Notes under the pieces: generated by a model
Seen by the model: the letters and a program-made list of their open reading frames with translations, nothing else
Database searches by the model: none
Told to the model about the DNA's origin: nothing
IMG/VR virus record: IMGVR_UViG_3300030444_000128
Length of the DNA: 19,646 bases
Source of the DNA: a virus
Taxonomy: Duplodnaviria > Heunggongvirae > Uroviricota > Caudoviricetes
Direction: 5' to 3' (one strand)
Part shown: piece after piece, positions 1 to 19,646 of the stretch
Layout of the letters: the number at the start of each line of letters is the position of its first letter
Numbering within the stretch: the first letter of the stretch is position 1
Position numbers and translations under genes: made by a program

Positions 1-89
1 TAGCGCTGATGTCCGGCAGTGCTTTTGCCGTTACGCACCACCCCGTCAGTAGCTGAACAGGAGGGACAGCTGATAGAAACAGAAGCCAC
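1..89 (-). CDS. insA: IS1 InsA, N-terminal part (partial, runs off window start)
   Basis: Minus-strand reading from the GTG at 89-87 gives (M)[28 protein letters not shown], the known InsA N-terminus with its CxxC zinc-finger motif. Shorter than the ORF-track cutoff so not listed there. Confidence 0.7.
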
Positions 90-144
90 TGGAGCACCTC
101 AAAAACACCATCATACACTAAATCAGTAAGTTGGCAGCATCACC
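1..144 (-). mobile_element. IS1 left end (partial; element continues beyond window start)
   Basis: Reverse complement of 122-144 is GGTGATGCTGCCAACTTACTGAT, which I recognise as the IS1 terminal inverted repeat. Positions 1-144 read as the first ~144 nt of IS1 in reverse orientation, including the InsA N-terminus. From memory, not searched. Confidence 0.85.
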
Positions 145-363
145 TATCACGGCATGCGAATTGAGCTTAAAGAACCAAATGGTAAAGCCCCGACGAAAGA
201 GCAGATCGCCTGGATGCGCAGGCTTAGAGAGGAAGGTTACTACGTCGTTCTTGCGTATGGTGCAGAACAAGCGATAACCGCCATCCTGGAATACATAAGC
301 CTTAAAAAGGGTGAGGCTATTGAGCATGTATTGAACGGCGACAAGTGGTTGTATGCTGCTTAA
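145..363 (+). pseudogene. VRR-NUC domain nuclease gene, 3' portion only, interrupted by IS1
   Basis: ORF 154-363 encodes IELKEP...PTKEQIAWMRRLREEGYYVVLAYGAEQAITAILEY, resembling the C-terminal half of a VRR-NUC (PD-(D/E)xK) domain with the ExK motif but not the upstream PD motif. The reading frame runs back into IS1 and hits a stop at 127-129. No convincing SD precedes ATG 154. Confidence 0.45.
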
Positions 364-429
364 AATAATAAATTAATTAGTGCATATGTGCTCTTTGATA
401 TAGCGCACATTAACATCGGGAGAATAATC

Positions 430-585
430 GTGTCATTCAAGGCTAATTATGAATCGCTGGCATCGATCATGCCGCGTAATGAACAGGAAGCAGATGCTGT
501 AGTGGACCCGGTAATCGCTGAAATGAATGCTCGCCTGGAGGCTGAATTTGCAGCTGAGAATGAACATACCACCCAGGGCGACTAG
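430..585 (+). CDS. small hypothetical protein (~51 aa from GTG 430)
   Basis: ORF 388-585. The GTG at 430 is preceded by GGGAGA (417-422) at good spacing. No recognisable domain. The start is uncertain (GTG 388 is the alternative). Confidence 0.3.
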   Translation: MSFKANYESLASIMPRNEQEADAVVDPVIAEMNARLEAEFAAENEHTTQGD

Positions 586-5493: not shown

Positions 5494-8400
5494 CTATATT
5501 TTTCCGCCTACGCCTTTAAACTTCTCAATAAACGAGACGATTTTCTGGAAAACTGCCTGTTTTTTCGTTTTATATTGCGGATTCAACGGACTAAGTTTTG
5601 GTAATGTTTCGTTTAATTCTGTGCCATTTTCGGTGGCGTATTCGCGTTTTAAAGACGTGCGAATATAGCGTTTTGCTGCATCTTCATTGAGATTTTCTTC
5701 TTTTATCAATGCTTCTGCTTCACGTTGCTGTTCGCGTTGAGCAAACGTAAAGAATGCCTCAATGATACTGGCTTTGTCTGGTAAATCATCCAGGTTCGTT
5801 TGCTGAATAAAATCGACCACCAGGCCCTCTTTCGCCCGGTTCCCCAGGCTTGAACGAATTAAGCGTTTGACCTCTTCGATCATTTCGCCCTTGCCTTTAT
5901 TTTGTCTGTTGTGTTCGAAAATCAGTCCAAGGATATAATCCAGGTTTATTTCCTGAGACTTCAGCAAATCGACCTCAAAAACCACGTCATCCCAGTCAGT
6001 GGTTGATTTCTCTTTTTTCTCAGCTTCTTTCTCACGGCGCTGCCAGTCGCGAATATCGTTATAGGCAGAACGATAATCCTGAATCTTGCGATCAGCAGGG
6101 AGACGAATTGTTTGCAATTCAGCGAACTTTTCATCATCCACATAATGTTCTGCTTTGAATTTTTCTACCGCAACAGGATCGCTAAGATCGATTTGTTGCA
6201 GGGCTTTTAGCGTGGCAAATTCATCATAGTTTTGCAGGATGTTCTCGGCACGCAGGTATTCGCCAAACAGTTTAACGAAGTCTTTCTTCTCTTTTTCACT
6301 TTCAATACTGGCAGGGTCAGGGAACCGTTGTTCCAGTTCTGAAACTACTGCCATAAAGCCGCGTTTGGCTTCACCGGTGGCAGCATCAGTAAAACCTTCC
6401 ATATACTCTGCATAACTCTTTTCTAACACCACATTTTTGGTATTTTTATCACCAAACAGCGTTATGGCATCAATGGTTGAGCGTTCCAGATCCCGAAAAG
6501 TGACAATGTTACCGAAGGTTTTAGTGGCGTTATAAATGCGGTTGGTGCGGGAAAATGCCTGCATCAGGCCGTGAAAACGCAAGTTTTTATCGACGAATAG
6601 CGTGTTCAATGTTGGAGCGTCGAAGCCGGTTAAAAACATCCCAACGACAATTAACAGATCGATATCCTGATTTTTAACCCGTTGGGCTAAATCGCGATAG
6701 TAGTTCTGAAAACCGTTACCGTCGGTGCTGAAGTTAGTTTTAAAATAGCTGTTATACTCACGAATTGCAGCGTCAAGAAACTCTTTAGCACTGCTGTCCA
6801 TTGCGCTGGTATCAAAAGTTTCATCGGAAATTTCACCAATGGCATTTTGTTCTTCATTAGCGGCAAAGGAGAAGATTGTCGCAACACGCAGCGGTTTATA
6901 AGTTGCAGATTTATTAGCGGCTTCCTCTTGTAACCGTTTAAACGCCGCGTAATAGGCTTTTGCAGCATCCACGCTGCTCACTGCCAACATAGCATTAAAA
7001 CCTTTTGCGCCAGGGAAAGTACGGTGCGTCTTCTGGCGGAAGTTATTCAGAATATATTGCGTAATTTCCTGTATACGCATGGGATGAAGAAACGCCTGCT
7101 GATTTTCAGCCGCACTTAGTTTTTTCTCGTCAGTTTCTGTCTCTAAAGACTTAAACTGTGGCCGCACATCGTTGTAGTCCACCTTGAATTTGAGCACTTT
7201 TTCATCACGAATCGCATCGGTAATTACATACGAATGCAATTCACGACCAAATACGCTGGCGGTCGTTTCTGAGCCTAAGGCGTTTTCCGGGAAAATAGGT
7301 GTGCCGGTAAAACCAAACTGATAATAGCGTTTGAATTTCTTCTTCAGGTTTTTCTGCGCTTCTCCAAACTGGCTGCGGTGGCATTCATCAAATATAAACA
7401 CCACTTGCTGATTATATACAGGCAGGTCGCTTTCTGCTTTCATCAGGTTATTGAGTTTCTGAATAGTAGTGACGATAATTTTGTTATCGTCCTTATCCAG
7501 ATTTCGTTTAAGGCCTGCGGTATTTTCCGAGCCGTTGACGCTGTCTGGCGAAAAACGCTGATATTCCTTCATGGTCTGGTAATCGAGGTCTTTCCTGTCG
7601 ACCACAAAGAAGACTTTATCAATAAAGTCCAGCTCTGTTGCCAGACGCGCGGCTTTAAAGCTGGTGAGGGTTTTACCAGAACCGGTAGTGTGCCAGATAT
7701 ACCCACCGCTTTCCGGTTTTGACCAGTTCTTCGCTGTAAAGGAACTCTTAATTTTCCACAGAATGCGCTCGGTGGCGGCAATCTGGTACGGTCGCATCAC
7801 CAGTAGCGTCTGACTACTGTCAAAAACGCTGTAGTTCACCAGAACATTCAGCAGAGTATGTTTCTGGAAAAAGGTAGCGGTAAAGTCTTTGAGGTCTTTA
7901 ATCAGCGTGTTGTCTGATTTCGCCCAATTCATGGTGAAGTCAAAACTGTTTTTATCGCGCTTTGTCGTGTTGGCAAAATAACGGGTATCGGTGCCGTTAG
8001 AAATGACAAACAGTTGCAGATACTTAAACAGGGAATTTTCGCTGTTAAAACTCTCTTTACTGTAACGATGTATCTGGTTGAAAGCCTCACGAATCGCCAC
8101 CCCGCGTTTTTTTAGTTCGATTTGCACCAGCGGTAAACCATTAACCAGGATCGTGACGTCATAACGGTTAGCATGAGAACCCGTCTGTTCAAACTGCTGG
8201 ATAATCTGCACCTTATTGCGCATGAGATTCTTTTTATCTATCAAATAGATGTTCTCAAGTCGCCCGTCATCAAAAATAAAGTCGCAGATATAGTCGATAT
8301 GGATTTTACGGGTTTTATCCAGAATACCATCGCTGGGGTTGTCCAGATACTGCTCCGTGAAGCGCCGCCACTCGCTGTCATTAAACATCACACCATTGAG

Positions 8401-8610
8401 GCTCTGAAGCTGTTCCCGAACATTGGACAGCATTGCCGACTGTGATTTTACGGAAATAAATTCATAACCCTGATTTTGCAGGTCCTGAATCAGTTCACGT
8501 TCCAGGTCCGATTCGCTCTGGTAGCTGTCGCCTGTTGGCTCAGCTTTGATGTACTTATCAAGAACGATAAAGTTATTGGATTCAGCAATGGTGTGTGTCT
8601 GATGAGTCAT
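5494..8610 (-). CDS. hsdR: type I restriction enzyme R subunit (HsdR), EcoR124-like (type IC)
   Basis: 1038-aa ORF with helicase motifs ([12 protein letters not shown] Walker A; [14 protein letters not shown]-box-like) and the type I HsdR architecture. Length and N-terminus match my memory of EcoR124 HsdR. Lies downstream of hsdM-hsdS on the same strand. Confidence 0.93.
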
Positions 8611-8731
8611 AGCGCATCCTTTGTGCCGTCTGGCAAGGGCCGGAAGGGGGGTAATGGTGACTTCCGGCGCGTAAAAAATAGTCTATATACTGACCGGGTG
8701 TTAAGGTGGTCCGATCGGTAGCAATGATCAA

Positions 8732-9949
8732 TTAATTACTGGCAGTTTCAGGTTTCGGGAAACTGAACAGTAAATCACGGTAGTATTCGTATTGTTTCTG
8801 GCGCAACTCGATTTCACGCGGGAGACCTTCGGTGATAGAGTTGGTCAGGGTGTCGAATTTATCGAGTATTTCGACAATGCGAGCTTGTTCCTTAAGTGAT
8901 TTTTCGTGATCTTTAGGATATGGAACCGGAATCATAATTTTTGAAAAACCATTAATGAGTAGTGTATTAACTTTTGTTCTGGCTACATACTTTGCTTTTT
9001 CAGAAATAAACGAATCGGTTTGCATGTAATAGGAAATAAATTTTGGATTCAAAGAATGTCGAAAAGCATAACAGTGATCATGAATAGCGATATCGTCATC
9101 CCCAAGCCATGCCACTGCTTTACCAACGTCTTCTACAGTCTCCCCCACGTCAGTTATCACGACATCTCCATGTTTGGCATAGCGTAATGACGCTGCCATA
9201 TCAGCTCTAACCTGTGATAACGAATGAGTTGTGTAAACACCATATCGTGTATATATCTCACCATAATGGATTACACTGATACCACCATCTTCTACATAAT
9301 CTGCTTTAGTAAAACGTTTTCCACGAATAAACTCACCAATTTCCCCCAAAGTCTTCCACTCAACCTCACCATCTTTAAAACTCAACAACTGGTCGCGATA
9401 GTAGTTGTACTGTTTTTTACGCATGTTAAGCTCAGCGGTAAGCTCAGCGGTAAGTGCAGTAAATTTATCCAGAATCCGAACGATTTCAGACTGGATGGCA
9501 AGGGATTTTTCCGGATTATCCGGGCAGGGGATGGGGATAGGGAAATTCTCTAAGGTTGATAGCACGATATATGTCATTGCCGCGCTATTTGTTCTTTCCT
9601 CGAGATATTTCTTCAGGCTATGGCTAAGCACAAAATACAAAAATCTAACACTTACATTTTCGTCGAAATTTGTCAGAACATAGGTGCGCTGATAAGCCTC
9701 AAACTTGCCGATGTAATGCTTCACCTCACCAACATTCGCATTGCCTGCAATCAGCAATGCCTCTGTATCCCAGCGGAATTTATCAATTTTGCTTGTCTCT
9801 TTGGCTGTCGTGAAGAACATATACTCTCCATCATCAACAGCCGCATTCGCATTAAGCTTTCCTGTTTCAATTTTGCAAGTTTGCCCAAGTGTCTTCCACT
9901 CAACCTCAACCCCATCCAGCAATTTTTCCAGATAACTCATCTCGCTCAT
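8732..9949 (-). CDS. hsdS: type I restriction-modification specificity subunit (HsdS), type IC with TAEL x2 central repeat
   Basis: 405-aa ORF with two target-recognition halves (EVEWKTLG occurs twice) and the central conserved region ...[29 protein letters not shown]. Start ATG overlaps the hsdM stop (ATGA). Confidence 0.92.
9429..9452 (-). repeat. 12-bp tandem repeat (2 copies) encoding TAEL-TAEL in the HsdS central spacer
   Basis: Plus strand GCTCAGCGGTAA GCTCAGCGGTAA. On the coding strand this is the LTAELTAEL segment whose copy number is known to set the spacer length of type IC recognition sites. Confidence 0.9.
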
Positions 9950-11508
9950 TTCTGCACCTCGCAGCCTTCAATTTCAGCCACAATTGCATCAATATCTTTA
10001 CGCAACTGGTCGATTTTGCTGACCGTGGTTTTCAGCTCTGCATTCAGCTCACCGATATCGATAATTTCGCGGTTATCTTTCGCTTCCACATAGCTGCTCA
10101 CCGACAGGTTATAGTCATTCGCGACAACAGTCTCAAACGCAACAGATTTCGCCAGATGAGCAACATCTTCCTTGCTGGCAAATACCTGCATAATCTGTTC
10201 GATATGGGCATCGGTCAGGATATTGTTGTTGGTTTCTTTTTTGAACAGTTCGCTGGCATCAATAAACTGAACTTTGGTATCCGTTTTATGTTTAGACAGC
10301 ACCAGAATGTTTACAGCAATAGTGGTGCCAAAGAACAGGTTCGGTGCCAGTGAAATCACGGTTTCGACATAGTTATTATCGACCAGATACTGACGGATTT
10401 TCTGCTCCGCGCCGCCACGGTAAAAAATACCCGGGAAGCAGACAATCGCAGCACGACCTTTGGCCGAAAGATAGTTCAGCGCATGTAGTACAAACGCAAA
10501 GTCAGCTTTGGATTTGGGGGCCAGGACGCCAGCCGGGGCAAAACGTTCATCGTTAATCAGCGTCGGGTCATCGCTGCCAATCCATTTCACCGAATACGGC
10601 GGGTTAGAAACGATGGCATCAAACGGTTTTTCATCTCTGAAGTGTGGCTCAGTCAGTGTATTACCCAGCTTGATATCAAACTTGTCGTAGTTGATGTTGT
10701 GCAAAAACATGTTCATACGTGCCAGGTTATAGGTTGTATGGTTGATTTCCTGACCAAAAAAGCCTTCTTCGATGATATGGTTATCAAACTGCTTTTTAGC
10801 CTGCAACAACAGTGAGCCGGAACCCGCTGCCGGGTCGTAGATTTTGTTAACGTTGGTCTGCCCGTGCATAGCCAGTTGTGCAATCAGCTTGGAGACGTGC
10901 TGCGGTGTAAAGAACTCACCGCCTGACTTACCGGCATTTGCCGCATAGTTAGAAATCAGGAACTCATAGGCATCACCGAACAGGTCAATCTGATGTTCGT
11001 TGAAGTCACCAAGTTTTAACCCTTCAACCCCTTTCAGAACCGCAGCCAGGCGGGCATTTTTATCTTTAACGGTGTTACCCAGGCGGTTACTGGTGGTATC
11101 GAAATCAGCAAACAAACCTTTGATGTCTGCTTCTGAAGGGTAGCCGTAAGCAGAACTTTCGATAGCAACGAAGATGCTGTTTAAATCTGCGTTCAGTCTG
11201 TCATTGGTATTTGCTTTCGCAGCTACGTTGCAGAAAAGCTGACTGGGGTAGATGAAGTAGCCTTTAGTTTTGATGGCATCGTCTTTAATGTCATCAGTAA
11301 TTACGCTGTCATCCAGTTTCGCATAACAGATACTGTCATCACCGGCTTCAATATAACTGGAAAAATTTTCGCTGATAAAACGGTAGAAAAGTGCGCCCAG
11401 AACGTATTGCTTAAAATCCCATCCATCGACCGAACCCCTGACATCGTTAGCAATTTGCCAGATTTGACGATGAAGCTCTGCACGTTGTTGAATACTTGTC
11501 ATTTTCAT
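9946..11508 (-). CDS. hsdM: type I restriction-modification N6-adenine DNA methyltransferase subunit (HsdM)
   Basis: 520-aa ORF with the catalytic NPPY motif ([10 protein letters not shown]) and an AdoMet-binding region ([10 protein letters not shown]). Confidence 0.95.
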
Positions 11509-13584: not shown

Positions 13585-13629
13585 ATTCCACGTTGATTAG
13601 TTGACATGGGCTAATCAGTAGGTGACAGG

Positions 13630-14167: not shown

Positions 14168-15361
14168 GTGACCTGGGACGATCACAAGAAGAATTTTGCT
14201 CGCCTGGCGCGAGATGGTGGTTACACCATCGCACAGTATGCCGCCGAGTTTAATCTTAACCCTAATACCGCACGTCGTTATCTCCGTGCCTTCAAAGAAG
14301 ACACCAGGACAGCGGACAGCCGCAAGCCAAATAAGCCAGTCAGGAAGCCACTAAAAAGCATGATCATTGATCACTCTAATGATCAACATGCAGGTGATCA
14401 CATTGCGGCTGAAACAGCGGAAAAACAAAGAGTTAATGCCGTTGTCAGTGCCGCAGTCGAGAATGCGAAGCGCCAAAATAAGCGCATAAATGATCGTTCA
14501 GATGATCATGACGTGATCACCCGCGCCCACCGGACCTTACGTGATCGCCTGGAACGCGACACCCTGGATGATGATGGTGAACGCTTTGAATTCGAAGCTG
14601 GCGATTACCTGATAGATAACGTTGAAGCGCGGAAGGCCGCGCGCGCTATGTTGCGTCGGTCCGGGGCCGATGTTCTGGAAACCACTCTTCTGGAAAAGTC
14701 TCTTTCTCATCTCCTTATGCTGGAGAACGCCAGGGATACGTGTATTCGCCTGGTGCAGGAAATGCGCGATCAGCAAAAAGACGATGATGAAGGTACTCCG
14801 CCTGAATACCGTATCGCGAGCATGCTAAACAGCTGTTCCGCGCAGATAAGCAGTCTGATCAACACCATTTACAGCATCCGGAATAACTATCGAAAAGAAA
14901 GCCGGGAGGCGGAAAAGCACGCTTTGTCTATGGGGCAAGCTGGCATTGTTAAGCTGGCATATGAACGAAAGCGTGAAAATAACTGGTCAGTGCTGGAAGC
15001 AGCTGAATTCATCGAGGCGCATGGTGGGAAAGTTCCGCCCCTGATGCTGGAGCAAATCAAAGCCGATCTGCGTGCTCCTAAGACCAATACCGATGATGAG
15101 GAAAGGCAAACAGCCGTCGGTGGCCCTTCTCTTGACGATCTGGACAAAGTTGCGCGAGAACGGGCCGCCAACCGCCGCGCCGATGCCGCATTGTGGATTG
15201 AGCAGCGTAGGGAAGAAATCGCCGATATCGTTGATACAGGCGGTTATGGAGATGTTGATACTGAAGGTGTATCAAACGACCCATGGCTGGAACAAGACCT
15301 GGACGAAGACGAGGAGGAAGACGAAGAAGTTACCCGCAAGCTATACGGGGATGATGATTAA
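14168..15361 (+). CDS. pacA: P1 PacA (pacase / terminase small component)
   Basis: 397-aa ORF from GTG 14168 (GGAAG SD). Contains the characteristic pac hexanucleotide cluster near its 5' end and an acidic C-terminal tail. Stop overlaps the next start (ATGA). Confidence 0.9.
14361..14519. other. P1 pac packaging site (4 + 3 TGATCA/G hexanucleotide repeats with Dam GATC sites)
   Basis: TGATCA at 14361, 14368, 14380 and 14395; TGATCG at 14491; TGATCA at 14503 and 14514. Two clusters about 90 bp apart inside pacA, matching the described roughly 160-bp pac architecture. Confidence 0.9.
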
Positions 15362-16340
15362 TGGCCAGAAGTTGCGTAACGGATCCTCGTTGGCGCGAGC
15401 TGGTGGCGCTATATCGTTATGACTGGATTGCTGCCGCTGATGTTTTGTTCGGCAAAACACCTACCTGGCAGCAGGATCTGATTATTGAGTCTGTGCAGGA
15501 ACAGGGTAGCAAGACATCTGTTTCGTCTGGTCACGGTACCGGGAAATCAGACATGACTTCTATCATGATCATGTTGTTCATAATCATGTATCCCGGTGCC
15601 CGCGCCATTATCGTTGCGAACAAAATTCAGCAGGTAATGACCGGTATATTCAAGTACATCAAGATAAACTGGGCTACTGCCACCAGCCGTTTTCCATGGC
15701 TTGCTGATTATTTTGTTCTGACAGAAACCGCTTTCTATGAGGTTACTGGTAAAGGTGTATGGACTGTATCAATATCATGATGGTGTCCGGCCAGCGAAAT
15801 AAACGCCGTGTAATCAACTATCGAATGCTGGAATACACAGACGTTACAGAAACGCAGCTTGCCGCCAAAATTTTCGCAGAATGTAATCCTGAGCGATTCC
15901 CCAATATCACCATAGCGATAGATGGCGATGGCCTGGGTAAAGCAACAGCGGATCTGATGTACGAGTATTATGGTATTACCGTACAGCGTATACGCTGGGG
16001 TAAAAAGATGCATAGCCGTGAAGATAAGAGCCTGTACTTTGATAAACGTGCTTATGCCAACGTTCAAGCCGCAGAGGCCGTAAAATCTGGTCGTATGAGA
16101 CTGGATAAGGGTAATGAAACTATTGAGGAAGCGTCGAAAATCCCTGTAGGGATTAACTCCGCAGGTCAATGGAAGGTGATGAGTAAGGAGGATATGAAGA
16201 AAAAACTCAACCTGCACTCACCAGACCATTGGGATACATATTGTTTCGCTATGCTGGCGGATTATGTTCCCCAGGATGAAGTGCTTAGCGTCGAAGACGA
16301 AGCGCAGGTTGATGAAGCTCTGGCATGGCTTAATGAATGA
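15361..16340 (+). pseudogene. pacB: pacB (terminase large component), apparently internally deleted and frameshifted
   Basis: Two ORFs in different frames: 15361-15780 carries the Walker A (SGHGTGKSD) and 15759-16340 carries a nuclease-domain-like segment ([11 protein letters not shown]...HSPDHWD). No Walker B anywhere. The combined length (~326 codons) is well below the ~494 aa I recall for P1 PacB. A TAA at 15750-15752 blocks the frame of the second ORF upstream. Confidence 0.6.
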
Positions 16341-16360: not shown

Positions 16361-16490
16361 TGTTTTTTAGCTACCGATGTTACATTGAACCTGACCTCTT
16401 GCGCCTTGAGGCATTTTCGGTTTATGCTTATCAGGCACCTCATTAAAACGGGTGCCGGGATTGGCCTCCCGCTTAAGTCTAAGGCGATAC

Positions 16491-16514
16491 AGACGCCGCT
16501 CGCGTCTTTTTTTT
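16491..16514 (+). terminator. probable rho-independent terminator
   Basis: AGACGC-CGCTC-GCGTCT followed by seven T: short GC-rich stem plus T-tract, downstream of pacB. Confidence 0.5.
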
Positions 16515-16679
16515 GTATCGGCGTACACGCACACCTCTACAATGGTGGGCTGTATGGGGCTACCTTCGGGTAGGCTGGTTACCTTGGACGCCAGTAAGGC
16601 CAACTCCGTACAGTCCACCGCCAGCAAGATTGGTCTCTTCTGCGGTGGTTACATACCAACGTCTAAGGAGGCTGCCAAT

Positions 16680-16901
16680 ATGGCTACTATCCCTACCCCA
16701 ACTCATCCTGAATTTATCTGGCGCTTTTACTCCTGCCAAAAACGTCACTATCACTTCGTTATTGCACCAACAGAAGATGAGGCCCGCTCTCAGCTTCCTG
16801 ACGCCCCATGTATTTTCTCTGCCCGTTTTTCCACTGATTCACGCAATTCTCTCAGTTACTGGTGCCTCCCTGTTAACGCTTCTGTTCAGGAGGGGCTATG
16901 A
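16680..16901 (+). CDS. small hypothetical protein (73 aa)
   Basis: ATG 16680 preceded by AAGGAGG (16665-16671). Stop TGA overlaps the ATG of the next gene (ATGA at 16898), suggesting coupling. It is the inner part of ORF 16452-16901. Confidence 0.45.
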   Translation: MATIPTPTHPEFIWRFYSCQKRHYHFVIAPTEDEARSQLPDAPCIFSARFSTDSRNSLSYWCLPVNASVQEGL

Positions 16902-18016
16902 GAACGTCATTAGTCACCCGTGAAGAGATGATCGAGGCAATTGAACAGCACACTGCCTGTATCAGCACCAGGGATATTCCCAGTGTTATAGCCAACTACT
17001 TCATGATCACTAAACAACTTTACCGGAGAAAGGACAAGAACGCGGTTCACCGTATCCTGCTGTCTGATATTCGCGAATACCTGCTCGAACAGGGTCATCT
17101 GAATTACGCAACCGTCGCAGCCGAAGCACGCAAGGAGGCACACAGAATGAAAGCAACTAACGTTAAATCAGAAAAAATTCATGCACCTTCAGTTCAGGAA
17201 TCGGAGCTGGTGGTTGTTCAGAATCAGTCTGATGAAATTCCCGTTCTGGAATGGCAGGGAGTGCGTGTAGTGACAACCGAGACTCTTGCTAGAGGGTATG
17301 GGACAGAAACAATCCGTATTCGCCAAAATCATCATGAGAACAAAGTACGCTTTGTTGAAGGGAAGCACTTTTTCAAAGTTGAAGGAGAATCATTGCGCGA
17401 GTTGAAGCACAGAGTAGCTTTAAACTACTCTGTAAAAATTGCTCGCAATGTTCGCTCACTCACCCTCTGGACAGAACGCGGCGCAGCCCGCCACGCTAAA
17501 ATGCTCGAAACCGATCAGGCATGGGCATTCTTTGAAAAACTGGAAGACAGCTACTTCCGACAAAAAGAACAGCAACCGATCGCAATCCCCCAGACGCTTC
17601 CTGAAGCCCTACGCCTGGCTGCCGAACTGGCTGAACAAAAGCAACTTCTGGAACAGAAAGCCCACCAGCTAAATCAGCAGCTGGTGGCCGCCGCTCCTAA
17701 AGTCGATTTTGCCGACCGGGTATCAGTAGCTAAAGGGATCCTGATTGGGAATTTTGCAAAGGTTGTTGGACTTAAGCAAAACGCGCTGTTTGTCTGGTTA
17801 CGGGAGAACGGCATCCTGATAGCGTCCGGTGGACGTAAAAATGTGCCGTTCCAGCAGTACATCAACGCGGGGTATTTCACGGTGAAAGAAGTGGTGCTGG
17901 ATGATGAAGATGGCTACCAGATACGGTTGACGCCTCAATTAACGGGTAAAGGCCAGCAGTGGTTGACGCGTAAACTGCTCGATGCTGGCTTGTTAAAACC
18001 GGTGGCAGCTGAATAA
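16898..18016 (+). CDS. antirepressor-like protein (ORF6N-type N-terminal domain + KilA-C/Ant C-terminal domain)
   Basis: Middle region VRVVTTETLARGYGTETIRIRQNHHENKVRFVEGKHFFKVEGESLRELK resembles the ORF6N domain; the C-terminal part (...LFVWLRENGILIASGG...QQYINAGYFTVKE) resembles the phage antirepressor C-terminal domain. AGGAGG 4 nt before ATG 16898. An internal ATG at 17147 also has a strong AGGAGG SD, so a shorter 289-aa product is possible. Confidence 0.7.
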   Translation: MRTSLVTREEMIEAIEQHTACISTRDIPSVIANYFMITKQLYRRKDKNAVHRILLSDIREYLLEQGHLNYATVAAEARKEAHRMKATNVKSEKIHAPSVQESELVVVQNQSDEIPVLEWQGVRVVTTETLARGYGTETIRIRQNHHENKVRFVEGKHFFKVEGESLRELKHRVALNYSVKIARNVRSLTLWTERGAARHAKMLETDQAWAFFEKLEDSYFRQKEQQPIAIPQTLPEALRLAAELAEQKQLLEQKAHQLNQQLVAAAPKVDFADRVSVAKGILIGNFAKVVGLKQNALFVWLRENGILIASGGRKNVPFQQYINAGYFTVKEVVLDDEDGYQIRLTPQLTGKGQQWLTRKLLDAGLLKPVAAE

Positions 18017-19220: not shown

Positions 19221-19339
19221 AATTATGCCTCACTGTATTGACAACACAGAGCCTGAAGCTCTGACCTACTGTTTCACCCATGATCCATGCTGGGGTAATC
19301 TAACAACATTGCGCTGTGTGTAAGATGAGCAATGCATAG

Positions 19340-19646
<307 letters not shown>

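What the first reader, a model, noticed from the sequence alone, without database searches (positions are those of the whole stretch)
1..363. IS1 end abuts a truncated VRR-NUC gene; the window is bracketed by IS1 and IS5
The IS1 inverted repeat ends at 144, exactly where the VRR-NUC-like reading frame loses its N-terminal half (the catalytic PD motif would lie beyond the IS). With IS5 at the other edge, the whole 19-kb segment could move or rearrange by IS-mediated recombination. P1 itself carries an IS1 that splits a gene (isaA/isaB in my recollection), so this may be that same junction in a different neighbourhood.
Basis: partly seen in the sequence, partly recalled or inferred. Interest (0 to 1): 0.4.

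Follow-up and report, generated by a model that had tools for sequence, protein, structure and literature searches.

The report
IS1-truncated P1 pmgM nuclease pseudogene
An IS1 insertion sequence cuts off the first 120 of 192 codons of the phage P1 gene pmgM in a decayed, IS-riddled P1-derived plasmid; this is an ordinary rearrangement scar that public genome records already annotate as a pseudogene.

Summary
Window 1-144 is the insA-proximal (IRL) end of IS1. From base 145 the sequence is the last 219 nt of phage P1 pmgM, a VRR-NUC nuclease. The break falls between the catalytic GYPD and IELK motifs, so Asp111 is lost and Glu127/Lys129 remain. An IS5-family element (ISKpn26) starts at 19340.

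- This is not P1's own IS1 junction. That IS1 lies 55 kb away between isaA and isaB, has its own 9-bp duplication TGCCCTCTG, and leaves P1 pmgM intact.
In the three complete E. coli records with the identical junction, the far side of IS1 holds an 850-bp remnant, a second inverted IS1 and a MobI/MobH mobilisation module.
- There is no pmgM 5' half and no second TATCACGGC.

The junction is therefore an IS1-mediated deletion or recombination end-point, not a simple insertion. The ISKpn26 at the other edge is, in relatives, an unrelated simple insertion in imcA with a 4-bp duplication. The two ISs belong to different families and do not define a mobile 19-kb unit. The setting is a P1-like phage-plasmid decaying into a mobilisable plasmid, a published phenomenon. 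Low interest; already known.

The parts
1..144 (-). Left (IRL, insA-proximal) 144 nt of IS1. IRL is at 122-144. The first 29 codons of insA lie at 89-3 on the minus strand. The IS1 body runs off the window's left edge.
   Evidence: 99.3% identity to IS1; IRL read directly; InsA N-terminus; promoter-like site at 137-110 on the minus strand, consistent with the insA promoter in IRL.
145..363 (+). 3' remnant of P1 pmgM (VRR-NUC nuclease): codons 121-192 plus stop. It keeps E127-x-K129 and lacks D111 (GYPD) and everything upstream. Pseudogene.
   Evidence: 98.5% nt identity to P1 79210-79428; protein identical to PmgM 121-192; full PmgM vs PDB 4qbl E 3.5e-17; RefSeq annotates the identical remnant as 'VRR-NUC domain-containing protein, incomplete, missing N-terminus'.
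145..153 (.). It is ordinary pmgM sequence and is not duplicated.
   Evidence: Present once in P1 pmgM at this site. In relatives there is no second copy beside any IS1 end. The only other occurrence in NZ_LT883139 lies at 16984, inside the 2-dehydro-3-deoxygalactonokinase gene and next to no IS1.
331..386 (+). Retained regulatory elements: predicted promoter PpmgN (331-357) and C1 operator Oppp (370-386). These are mapped from the P1 annotation. Downstream pmgN-pmgQ keep their own C1-controlled promoter despite loss of the upstream pmgL promoters.
   Evidence: P1 annotation; sequence comparison shows 1 mismatch in each element; overlapping promoter-like site at 338-366.
430..585 (+). pmgN, the first intact gene after the junction.
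19336..19339 (.). ATAG, the 4-bp ISKpn26 target site inside imcA. It is duplicated on the far side of the IS in relatives.
   Evidence: L008...GCATAG|GGAAGGTGCG...CGCACCTTCC|ATAGCTGTAATG; P1 empty site ...GTATAGCTGTAATG.
19340..19646 (+). Left 307 nt of an IS5-family element (ISKpn26-like): IR GGAAGGTGCGAATAAG, with the transposase ORF starting at 19408.
   Evidence: RefSeq naming.

Best explanation
The window comes from a decayed P1-like (IncY-type) phage-plasmid. At its left edge an IS1 element abuts codon 121 of pmgM, the P1 VRR-NUC (PD-(D/E)xK) nuclease gene. That leaves a catalytically dead 72-codon pseudogene.

The junction is not a simple IS1 insertion. It is the end-point of an IS1-mediated rearrangement. 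Two routes fit: an adjacent deletion by intramolecular transposition from the IRL end, or homologous recombination between two IS1 copies. Either route removed pmgM 5', pmgL and the upstream tail/baseplate genes, and joined the P1 remnant to an IS1-flanked scrap and a MobI/MobH mobilisation module. The event is inferred to have happened once and been inherited (see the For line).

The ISKpn26 at the right edge is a separate, simple insertion in imcA. The two ISs do not form a transposable unit.

Shown: the IS1 end, the pmgM break point and the lost PD motif. Also shown in relatives: the missing duplication, the absence of pmgM 5', and the simple ISKpn26 insertion.

Inferred: that the window's own unseen far side looks like that of the three relatives, and which of the two IS1 mechanisms acted.
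For: - IS1 end and pmgM break.
- VRR-NUC homology of PmgM.
- The identical junction (121/121 nt) occurs in NZ_CP086387, NZ_LT883139 and NZ_LR134247, that is 3 of 5,426 complete E. coli genomes. It also occurs in one IMG/VR contig and one human-gut contig.
- These share the same junction, and the three complete records also share the same far side, which is the basis for inferring a single inherited event.
- In all three complete records the far side is an 850-bp remnant, an inverted second IS1, then trhR, mobI and mobH.
- The flanking 9-mers of both IS1 copies (TAGTGAGGG / GCTTCGATG / AACTGCGGG / TATCACGGC) match in no pairing.
- No pmgL/pmgM 5' sequence exists anywhere in the 118.7-kb NZ_LT883139.
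- The reciprocal junction is absent from all complete E. coli genomes.
- Positive control: in the same plasmid family a 3,597-bp IS1 composite sits at the window-equivalent site 13621-13629 with a perfect 9-bp duplication GGTGACAGG. P1's own IS1 has TGCCCTCTG on both sides. Genuine IS1 insertions are therefore recognisable with this method.
- Other relatives truncate pmgM at different points against different ISs: nt 266, about 324-327, and 539. This shows ongoing IS-driven erosion of this boundary.
- ISKpn26 is a simple insertion with a 4-bp duplication in L008.
- Conversion of P1-like phage-plasmids into mobilisable plasmids by gene loss plus gain of mob/oriT is published (PMC10879196).
- pmgM is non-essential for P1 lytic growth (PMC10695390).
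Against: - The window starts inside IS1, so its own far side is unseen.
- The window is not identical to any of the three records (98.4-99.6% identity, mosaic). The far side is therefore extrapolated from relatives.
- Adjacent deletion and IS1 x IS1 homologous recombination cannot be told apart with the data in hand.
- Pfam's VRR_NUC model does not reach its gathering score, even for full-length PmgM.
Confidence: 0.85

Rival explanations
1. Simple IS1 transposition into an intact pmgM. In this reading the missing 5' part of the gene and a 9-bp duplication TATCACGGC lie just beyond the IS1, outside the window.
For: IS1 normally makes 9-bp duplications, as seen at two other sites. The window's own far side is not visible.
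Against: All three complete records with the identical junction lack pmgM 5' and the duplication. No complete E. coli genome holds the reciprocal junction. The window's pacB is also broken, which points to a decayed element.
Confidence: 0.07
2. The junction was made by P1's own resident IS1 (the isaA/isaB copy), through an adjacent deletion from its IRL end into pmgM. That would remove isaB...pmgM 5' (about 56 kb).
For: The orientation fits: in P1 the IRL also faces rightwards on the map. The 144 nt in the window are 99.3% identical to P1's IS1.
Against: In relatives the far flank is not isaA (no P1 19-24 kb homology outside IS1). The full IS1 there is only 97.0% identical to P1's copy. It carries a different IRR (GGTAATGACTCCAACTTACTGAT vs P1's GGTAATGACTCAAACTTATTGAT). 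P1's copy is annotated as 'mutant' and possibly transposition-defective.
Confidence: 0.04
3. Assembly artefact: a chimeric join at a repeated IS1.
For: IS copies are classic mis-join points. One of the three records (NCTC9040) places the plasmid-like DNA in the 'chromosome'.
Against: The identical junction appears in three independent complete assemblies and in two independent short contigs that read through it.
Confidence: 0.01

Closest known systems
Phage P1 pmgM (P1_gp086, YP_006552; VRR-NUC domain protein)
   Same: Window 145-363 is 98.5% identical in nucleotides to its 3' end and 100% identical in protein to residues 121-192. The downstream synteny is the same: pmgN-pmgO-pmgP-ppp-pmgQ.
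   Different: Codons 1-120 (including GYPD/D111), pmgL and the pmgL promoters are missing and replaced by IS1.
Identical annotated pseudogene junction in E. coli plasmids p1585m1_C (NZ_CP086387) and 'plasmid I' of isolate 1094 (NZ_LT883139), and in NCTC9040 (NZ_LR134247)
   Same: 121/121 nt across the IS1|pmgM junction. RefSeq annotates 'IS1 family transposase' next to 'VRR-NUC domain-containing protein, incomplete, missing N-terminus'.
   Different: The rest of the window is a mosaic, 97-99.6% identical to them. It differs in indels: pmgS is present or absent, an IS1 composite sits at 13621-13629 in LT883139, there is an icd/ant module, and pacB carries a deletion.
P1's resident IS1 between isaA and isaB
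   Same: Same IS family and the same orientation relative to the P1 map.
   Different: Different locus (22.6 kb vs 79.2 kb). P1's copy has an intact 9-bp duplication TGCCCTCTG and splits no annotated gene. The copy studied here has no duplication and a different IRR.
P1-like phage-plasmids converted to mobilisable plasmids (Pfeifer & Rocha 2024, PMC10879196)
   Same: Loss of phage structural genes. A relaxase/mob module (MobH, MobI) lies next to the junction in relatives. MOB-suite types NZ_CP099352, a related plasmid that truncates pmgM at a different point, as IncY and mobilizable.
   Different: Nothing substantive. This is one concrete junction in that process.
Stand-alone prokaryotic/viral VRR-NUC nuclease (PDB 4qbl)
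   Same: PmgM 77-180 aligns at E 3.5e-17, with conserved GYPD...YHG(M/L)RIE(L/I)K.
   Different: The window retains only the part from YHG onwards. No nuclease activity can be expected from it.

Membership tests
IS1 (IS1 family insertion sequence) | 23-bp terminal inverted repeat GGTGATGCTGCCAACTTACTGAT at the end | tested here: met
   Window 122-144 is its exact reverse complement.
IS1 (IS1 family insertion sequence) | insA reading frame starting about 55 nt inside IRL | tested here: met
   Minus strand 89-3 translates to [29 protein letters not shown]; 99.3% nt identity to IS1.
IS1 (IS1 family insertion sequence) | Complete 768-bp element with insA-insB' and both IRs | not testable with these tools
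   Only 144 nt lie in the window. In relatives with the same junction the element is 768 bp with an annotated frameshifted transposase.
Simple IS1 insertion event | 9-bp direct duplication of the target on both sides, with the interrupted gene continuing on the far side | tested here: not met
   Tested in relatives carrying the identical junction. The far flank is AACTGCGGG, not TATCACGGC. There is no pmgM 5' in the whole of NZ_LT883139, and no reciprocal junction in 5,426 genomes. The window's own far side is unseen.
VRR-NUC / PD-(D/E)xK nuclease (Pfam PF08774) | Score above the Pfam gathering threshold | tested here: not met
   Fragment 16.5 bits and full-length P1 PmgM 21.2 bits, against a threshold of 23.8.
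VRR-NUC / PD-(D/E)xK nuclease (Pfam PF08774) | Significant sequence homology to a solved VRR-NUC protein | tested here: met
   Full-length PmgM vs 4qbl_A 'VRR-NUC', E 3.5e-17 over residues 77-180. The window fragment is identical to PmgM 121-192.
VRR-NUC / PD-(D/E)xK nuclease (Pfam PF08774) | Complete catalytic motif: PD ... (D/E)xK | tested here: not met
   The window keeps E127-L-K129 but lacks GYPD (D111). The break is at residue 120/121. It is a remnant of a family member, not a functional member.
IS5 family (ISKpn26-like) | Terminal IR GGAAGGTGCG..., IS5-type transposase N-terminus, and a 4-bp target duplication | tested here: met
   IR at 19340; [12 protein letters not shown]...; 97.4-99.7% identity to copies annotated ISKpn26; ATAG duplicated in L008. 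The duplication was seen only in relatives.
Composite transposon bracketing the 19-kb segment | Two copies of the same IS at both ends, and a target duplication outside them | tested here: not met
   The ends are IS1 and ISKpn26, which are different families. In relatives the P1 backbone continues past ISKpn26, and the IS1 side has no duplication.
P1 resident IS1 locus (isaA-IS1-isaB) | IS1 flanked by isaA and isaB with TSD TGCCCTCTG | tested here: not met
   The window flank is pmgM, and in relatives the far flank is not isaA.

The most novel reading that the evidence does not exclude
In different P1-derived plasmids the pmgM boundary has been cut at four or more different points: nt 266, about 324-327, 360 and 539. 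The first three of these cuts keep the predicted PpmgN promoter, the C1 operator Oppp and the pmgN-pmgQ genes; the nt-539 cut lies downstream of the mapped PpmgN. This could reflect selection rather than neutral decay. One option is selection to keep a C1-controlled pmgN-pmgO-pmgP-ppp-pmgQ module (glycosyltransferase-like and phosphatase genes) in plasmid-only descendants. The other is selection against an active VRR-NUC nuclease once the phage cycle is lost.
Probability: 0.07. Interest if true: 0.3.

Novelty: already known. Interest (0 to 1): 0.08.

Why it matters
It matters little beyond annotation. The junction marks where a P1-like phage-plasmid lost its morphogenesis genes and, in relatives, was joined to a conjugative-mobilisation module. 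It is one concrete, datable scar of the published phage-plasmid-to-plasmid conversion. It can serve as a lineage marker, being an identical junction in 3 of 5,426 complete E. coli genomes. It does not reveal a new element, mechanism or gene.

Tried and rejected
1. Far side and TSD. I searched relatives for the missing pmgM 5' half and for TATCACGGC. Neither was found beside any IS1.
2. Composite transposon. I tested whether the two inverted IS1 copies plus the 850-bp insert moved as a unit into pmgM. The outer flanks TAGTGAGGG and TATCACGGC differ, so this is rejected.
3. P1's resident IS1 as the source. The far flank is not isaA and the IRR differs, so this is rejected.
4. Reciprocal junction. 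I searched all complete E. coli genomes for pmgM 5'-TATCACGGC|IS1-IRR. No place covered 80% or more of the query.
5. More far-side sequence. I scanned genome, viral and metagenome collections for the junction. There were 0, 1 and 1 hits, and both contigs end inside IS1, so they add nothing on the far side.
6. NCBIfam gave no hit for PmgM or for the fragment.
7. CP098985 (L012) as a possible precursor. It has an IS1 270 bp upstream of the window's junction, in the same orientation, inside an IS3-family end. Its IS1 far flank differs from that of the junction-bearing records and it also lacks a duplication. The link is suggestive only.
8. The literature search on 'pmgM' alone returned only unrelated hits.

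Full report
**Observation**

Window 1-144 is the insA-proximal end of IS1. It is 99.3% identical to IS1 copies, including the one in P1 (E 2e-67). Bases 122-144 are the exact reverse complement of the 23-bp IRL. The minus strand of 89-3 encodes the first 29 residues of InsA.

From base 145 the sequence is collinear with phage P1 (98.5% over 145-1500). It starts at P1 position 79210, inside pmgM (78850-79428, 192 aa). So 120 codons are missing and 72 are retained. The retained protein sequence is identical to PmgM 121-192.

PmgM is a genuine VRR-NUC-type PD-(D/E)xK protein. Full-length PmgM aligns with PDB 4qbl ('VRR-NUC') at E 3.5e-17, with conserved GYPD ... YHGxRIExK. The Pfam model stays just below its gathering score: 21.2 bits for the full protein and 16.5 for the fragment, against a threshold of 23.8. 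NCBIfam has no model for it.

The break lies between GYPD (D111) and I-E127-L-K129.

At the other edge, 19340-19646 is the left end of an IS5-family element. It has the IR GGAAGGTGCG and the transposase start [12 protein letters not shown]. It is 97.4-99.7% identical to copies that RefSeq names ISKpn26.

**Is it P1's own IS1 junction?**

No. P1's IS1 lies at 22626-23393 between isaA and isaB and is flanked on both sides by TGCCCTCTG. P1's pmgM is intact. Of 575 E. coli records that hold this region, 487 have it essentially complete.

The window begins inside IS1, so I used records that carry the identical junction. A 121-nt probe across it matches 100% in only three of 5,426 complete E. coli genomes:
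- plasmid p1585m1_C (NZ_CP086387)
- 'plasmid I' of isolate 1094 (NZ_LT883139)
- the NCTC9040 'chromosome' (NZ_LR134247)

. One IMG/VR contig and one human-gut contig also match, but both end inside IS1.

In all three complete records RefSeq already annotates 'IS1 family transposase' next to 'VRR-NUC domain-containing protein; incomplete; missing N-terminus'. The far side of the IS1 has three parts:
- an 850-bp scrap (a partial phosphorothioate-DNA-binding restriction endonuclease plus a 61-aa ORF)
- a second, inverted IS1
- trhR, mobI(A/C) and a MobH relaxase

.

The 9-mers flanking the four IS1 ends are TAGTGAGGG, GCTTCGATG, AACTGCGGG and TATCACGGC. No pair matches. No pmgL or pmgM 5' sequence exists anywhere in the 118.7-kb NZ_LT883139. 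The only other TATCACGGC there lies at 16984, inside the 2-dehydro-3-deoxygalactonokinase gene and next to no IS1. A synthetic probe for the reciprocal junction (pmgM 5'-TATCACGGC|IRR) finds nothing in any complete E. coli genome.

The method does detect real insertions. P1's IS1 has its duplication. In NZ_LT883139 a 3,597-bp IS1 composite sits at the window-equivalent site 13621-13629 with a perfect GGTGACAGG duplication, while the window has the empty site.

**What it is**

This is an IS1-mediated rearrangement end-point in a decayed P1-derived plasmid. Relatives are riddled with IS1, ISKpn26, IS26, IS30, IS110-family and IS3-family copies, and they retain only fragments of P1.

Other relatives cut pmgM elsewhere:
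- at nt 266, against an IS3-family end next to a group II intron (many records)
- at about nt 324-327, against an IS110-like sequence
- at nt 539

. This boundary has therefore been eroded repeatedly.

Two mechanisms fit the missing duplication and cannot be separated here:
- intramolecular IS1 transposition from the IRL end (adjacent deletion)
- homologous recombination between two IS1 copies, for example after cointegration with a MobH-type plasmid

CP098985 has an IS1 in the same orientation 270 bp upstream of the window's junction. That shows the kind of precursor an adjacent deletion would need, but it is not demonstrably ancestral.

**Consequences**

The pmgM remnant lacks D111 and any recognisable ribosome-binding site before its first ATG at 154. 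It is a pseudogene. pmgM is dispensable for P1 lytic growth anyway (PMC10695390).

The late and sigma-70 promoters of pmgL are gone. The predicted PpmgN (331-357) and the C1 operator Oppp (370-386) are retained with one mismatch each. So pmgN-pmgQ may still be expressed under C1 control. This is an inference.

**The 'bracketing' idea**

In NZ_CP099352 (L008) the ISKpn26 is a simple insertion in imcA with a 4-bp ATAG duplication, and P1 sequence (lox/cre side) resumes directly beyond it. IS1 and ISKpn26 are different families and cannot mobilise the 19 kb as one composite. No record shows this block moved as a unit.

Rearrangement through the many dispersed copies of each IS is plausible and is visible among relatives, as inversions of the mob region and as tandem ISKpn26 copies. 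But it is generic.

**Comparison with what is known**

Conversion of P1-like phage-plasmids into non-phage, often mobilisable, plasmids through gene loss and gain of mob/oriT functions has been described systematically (PMC10879196). The junction studied here is one scar of that process, and RefSeq already annotates it. The verdict is 'already known', with low interest.

Noticed in passing
window 15361-16340 (junction at 15767/15768): pacB (terminase large subunit) carries an internal deletion of about 505 bp with a frameshift, relative to the intact pacB of NZ_CP099352. It is split into two ORFs in different frames. The element in the window probably cannot package DNA.
   Followed up: partly
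window 5494-11508 (minus strand): A complete type I restriction-modification operon (hsdM 9946-11508, hsdS 8732-9949, hsdR 5494-8610) lies between pap and phd/doc. Many P1-like plasmids share this arrangement. The hsdS region (about 8870-9896) is the most divergent part between relatives.
   Followed up: partly
window 16452-18016: An icd-like gene plus an antirepressor (ant, 372 aa) lies between pacB and c1. It is absent at this place in P1 and in NZ_LT883139, and present in NZ_CP099352 and NZ_CP060066.
   Followed up: partly
window 13621-13629; NZ_LT883139 86246-89842: NZ_LT883139 carries a 3,597-bp composite of two inverted IS1 copies (IS1X2 ... IS1, with an HTH protein and a GyrI-like protein inside). 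It is inserted between pdcB and lpa with a perfect 9-bp duplication GGTGACAGG. The window has the empty site.
   Followed up: yes
L004/L015/L016 (NZ_LR134247, about 2.118-2.158 Mb): In NCTC9040 the same P1-plasmid remnant (repA/parAB, mobH, IS1|pmgM) is assembled into the chromosome. It is joined to a resident prophage through cin-like recombinase and tail-fibre invertible segments. Whether this is a real integration or a mis-assembly was not resolved.
   Followed up: partly
L008 5906, L012 4236, L009 5967; E. coli records: pmgM is truncated at other positions in related plasmids: nt 266 against an IS3-family end (recurrent, many records), about nt 324-327 against an IS110-like sequence, and nt 539. 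The 456 nt downstream of window base 145 are 100% identical between the window, L008 and L009.
   Followed up: partly
L006 44451-46638 (NZ_LT883139 94451-96638): At the imcA insertion site NZ_LT883139 has two tandem ISKpn26 copies where NZ_CP099352 has one.
   Followed up: no
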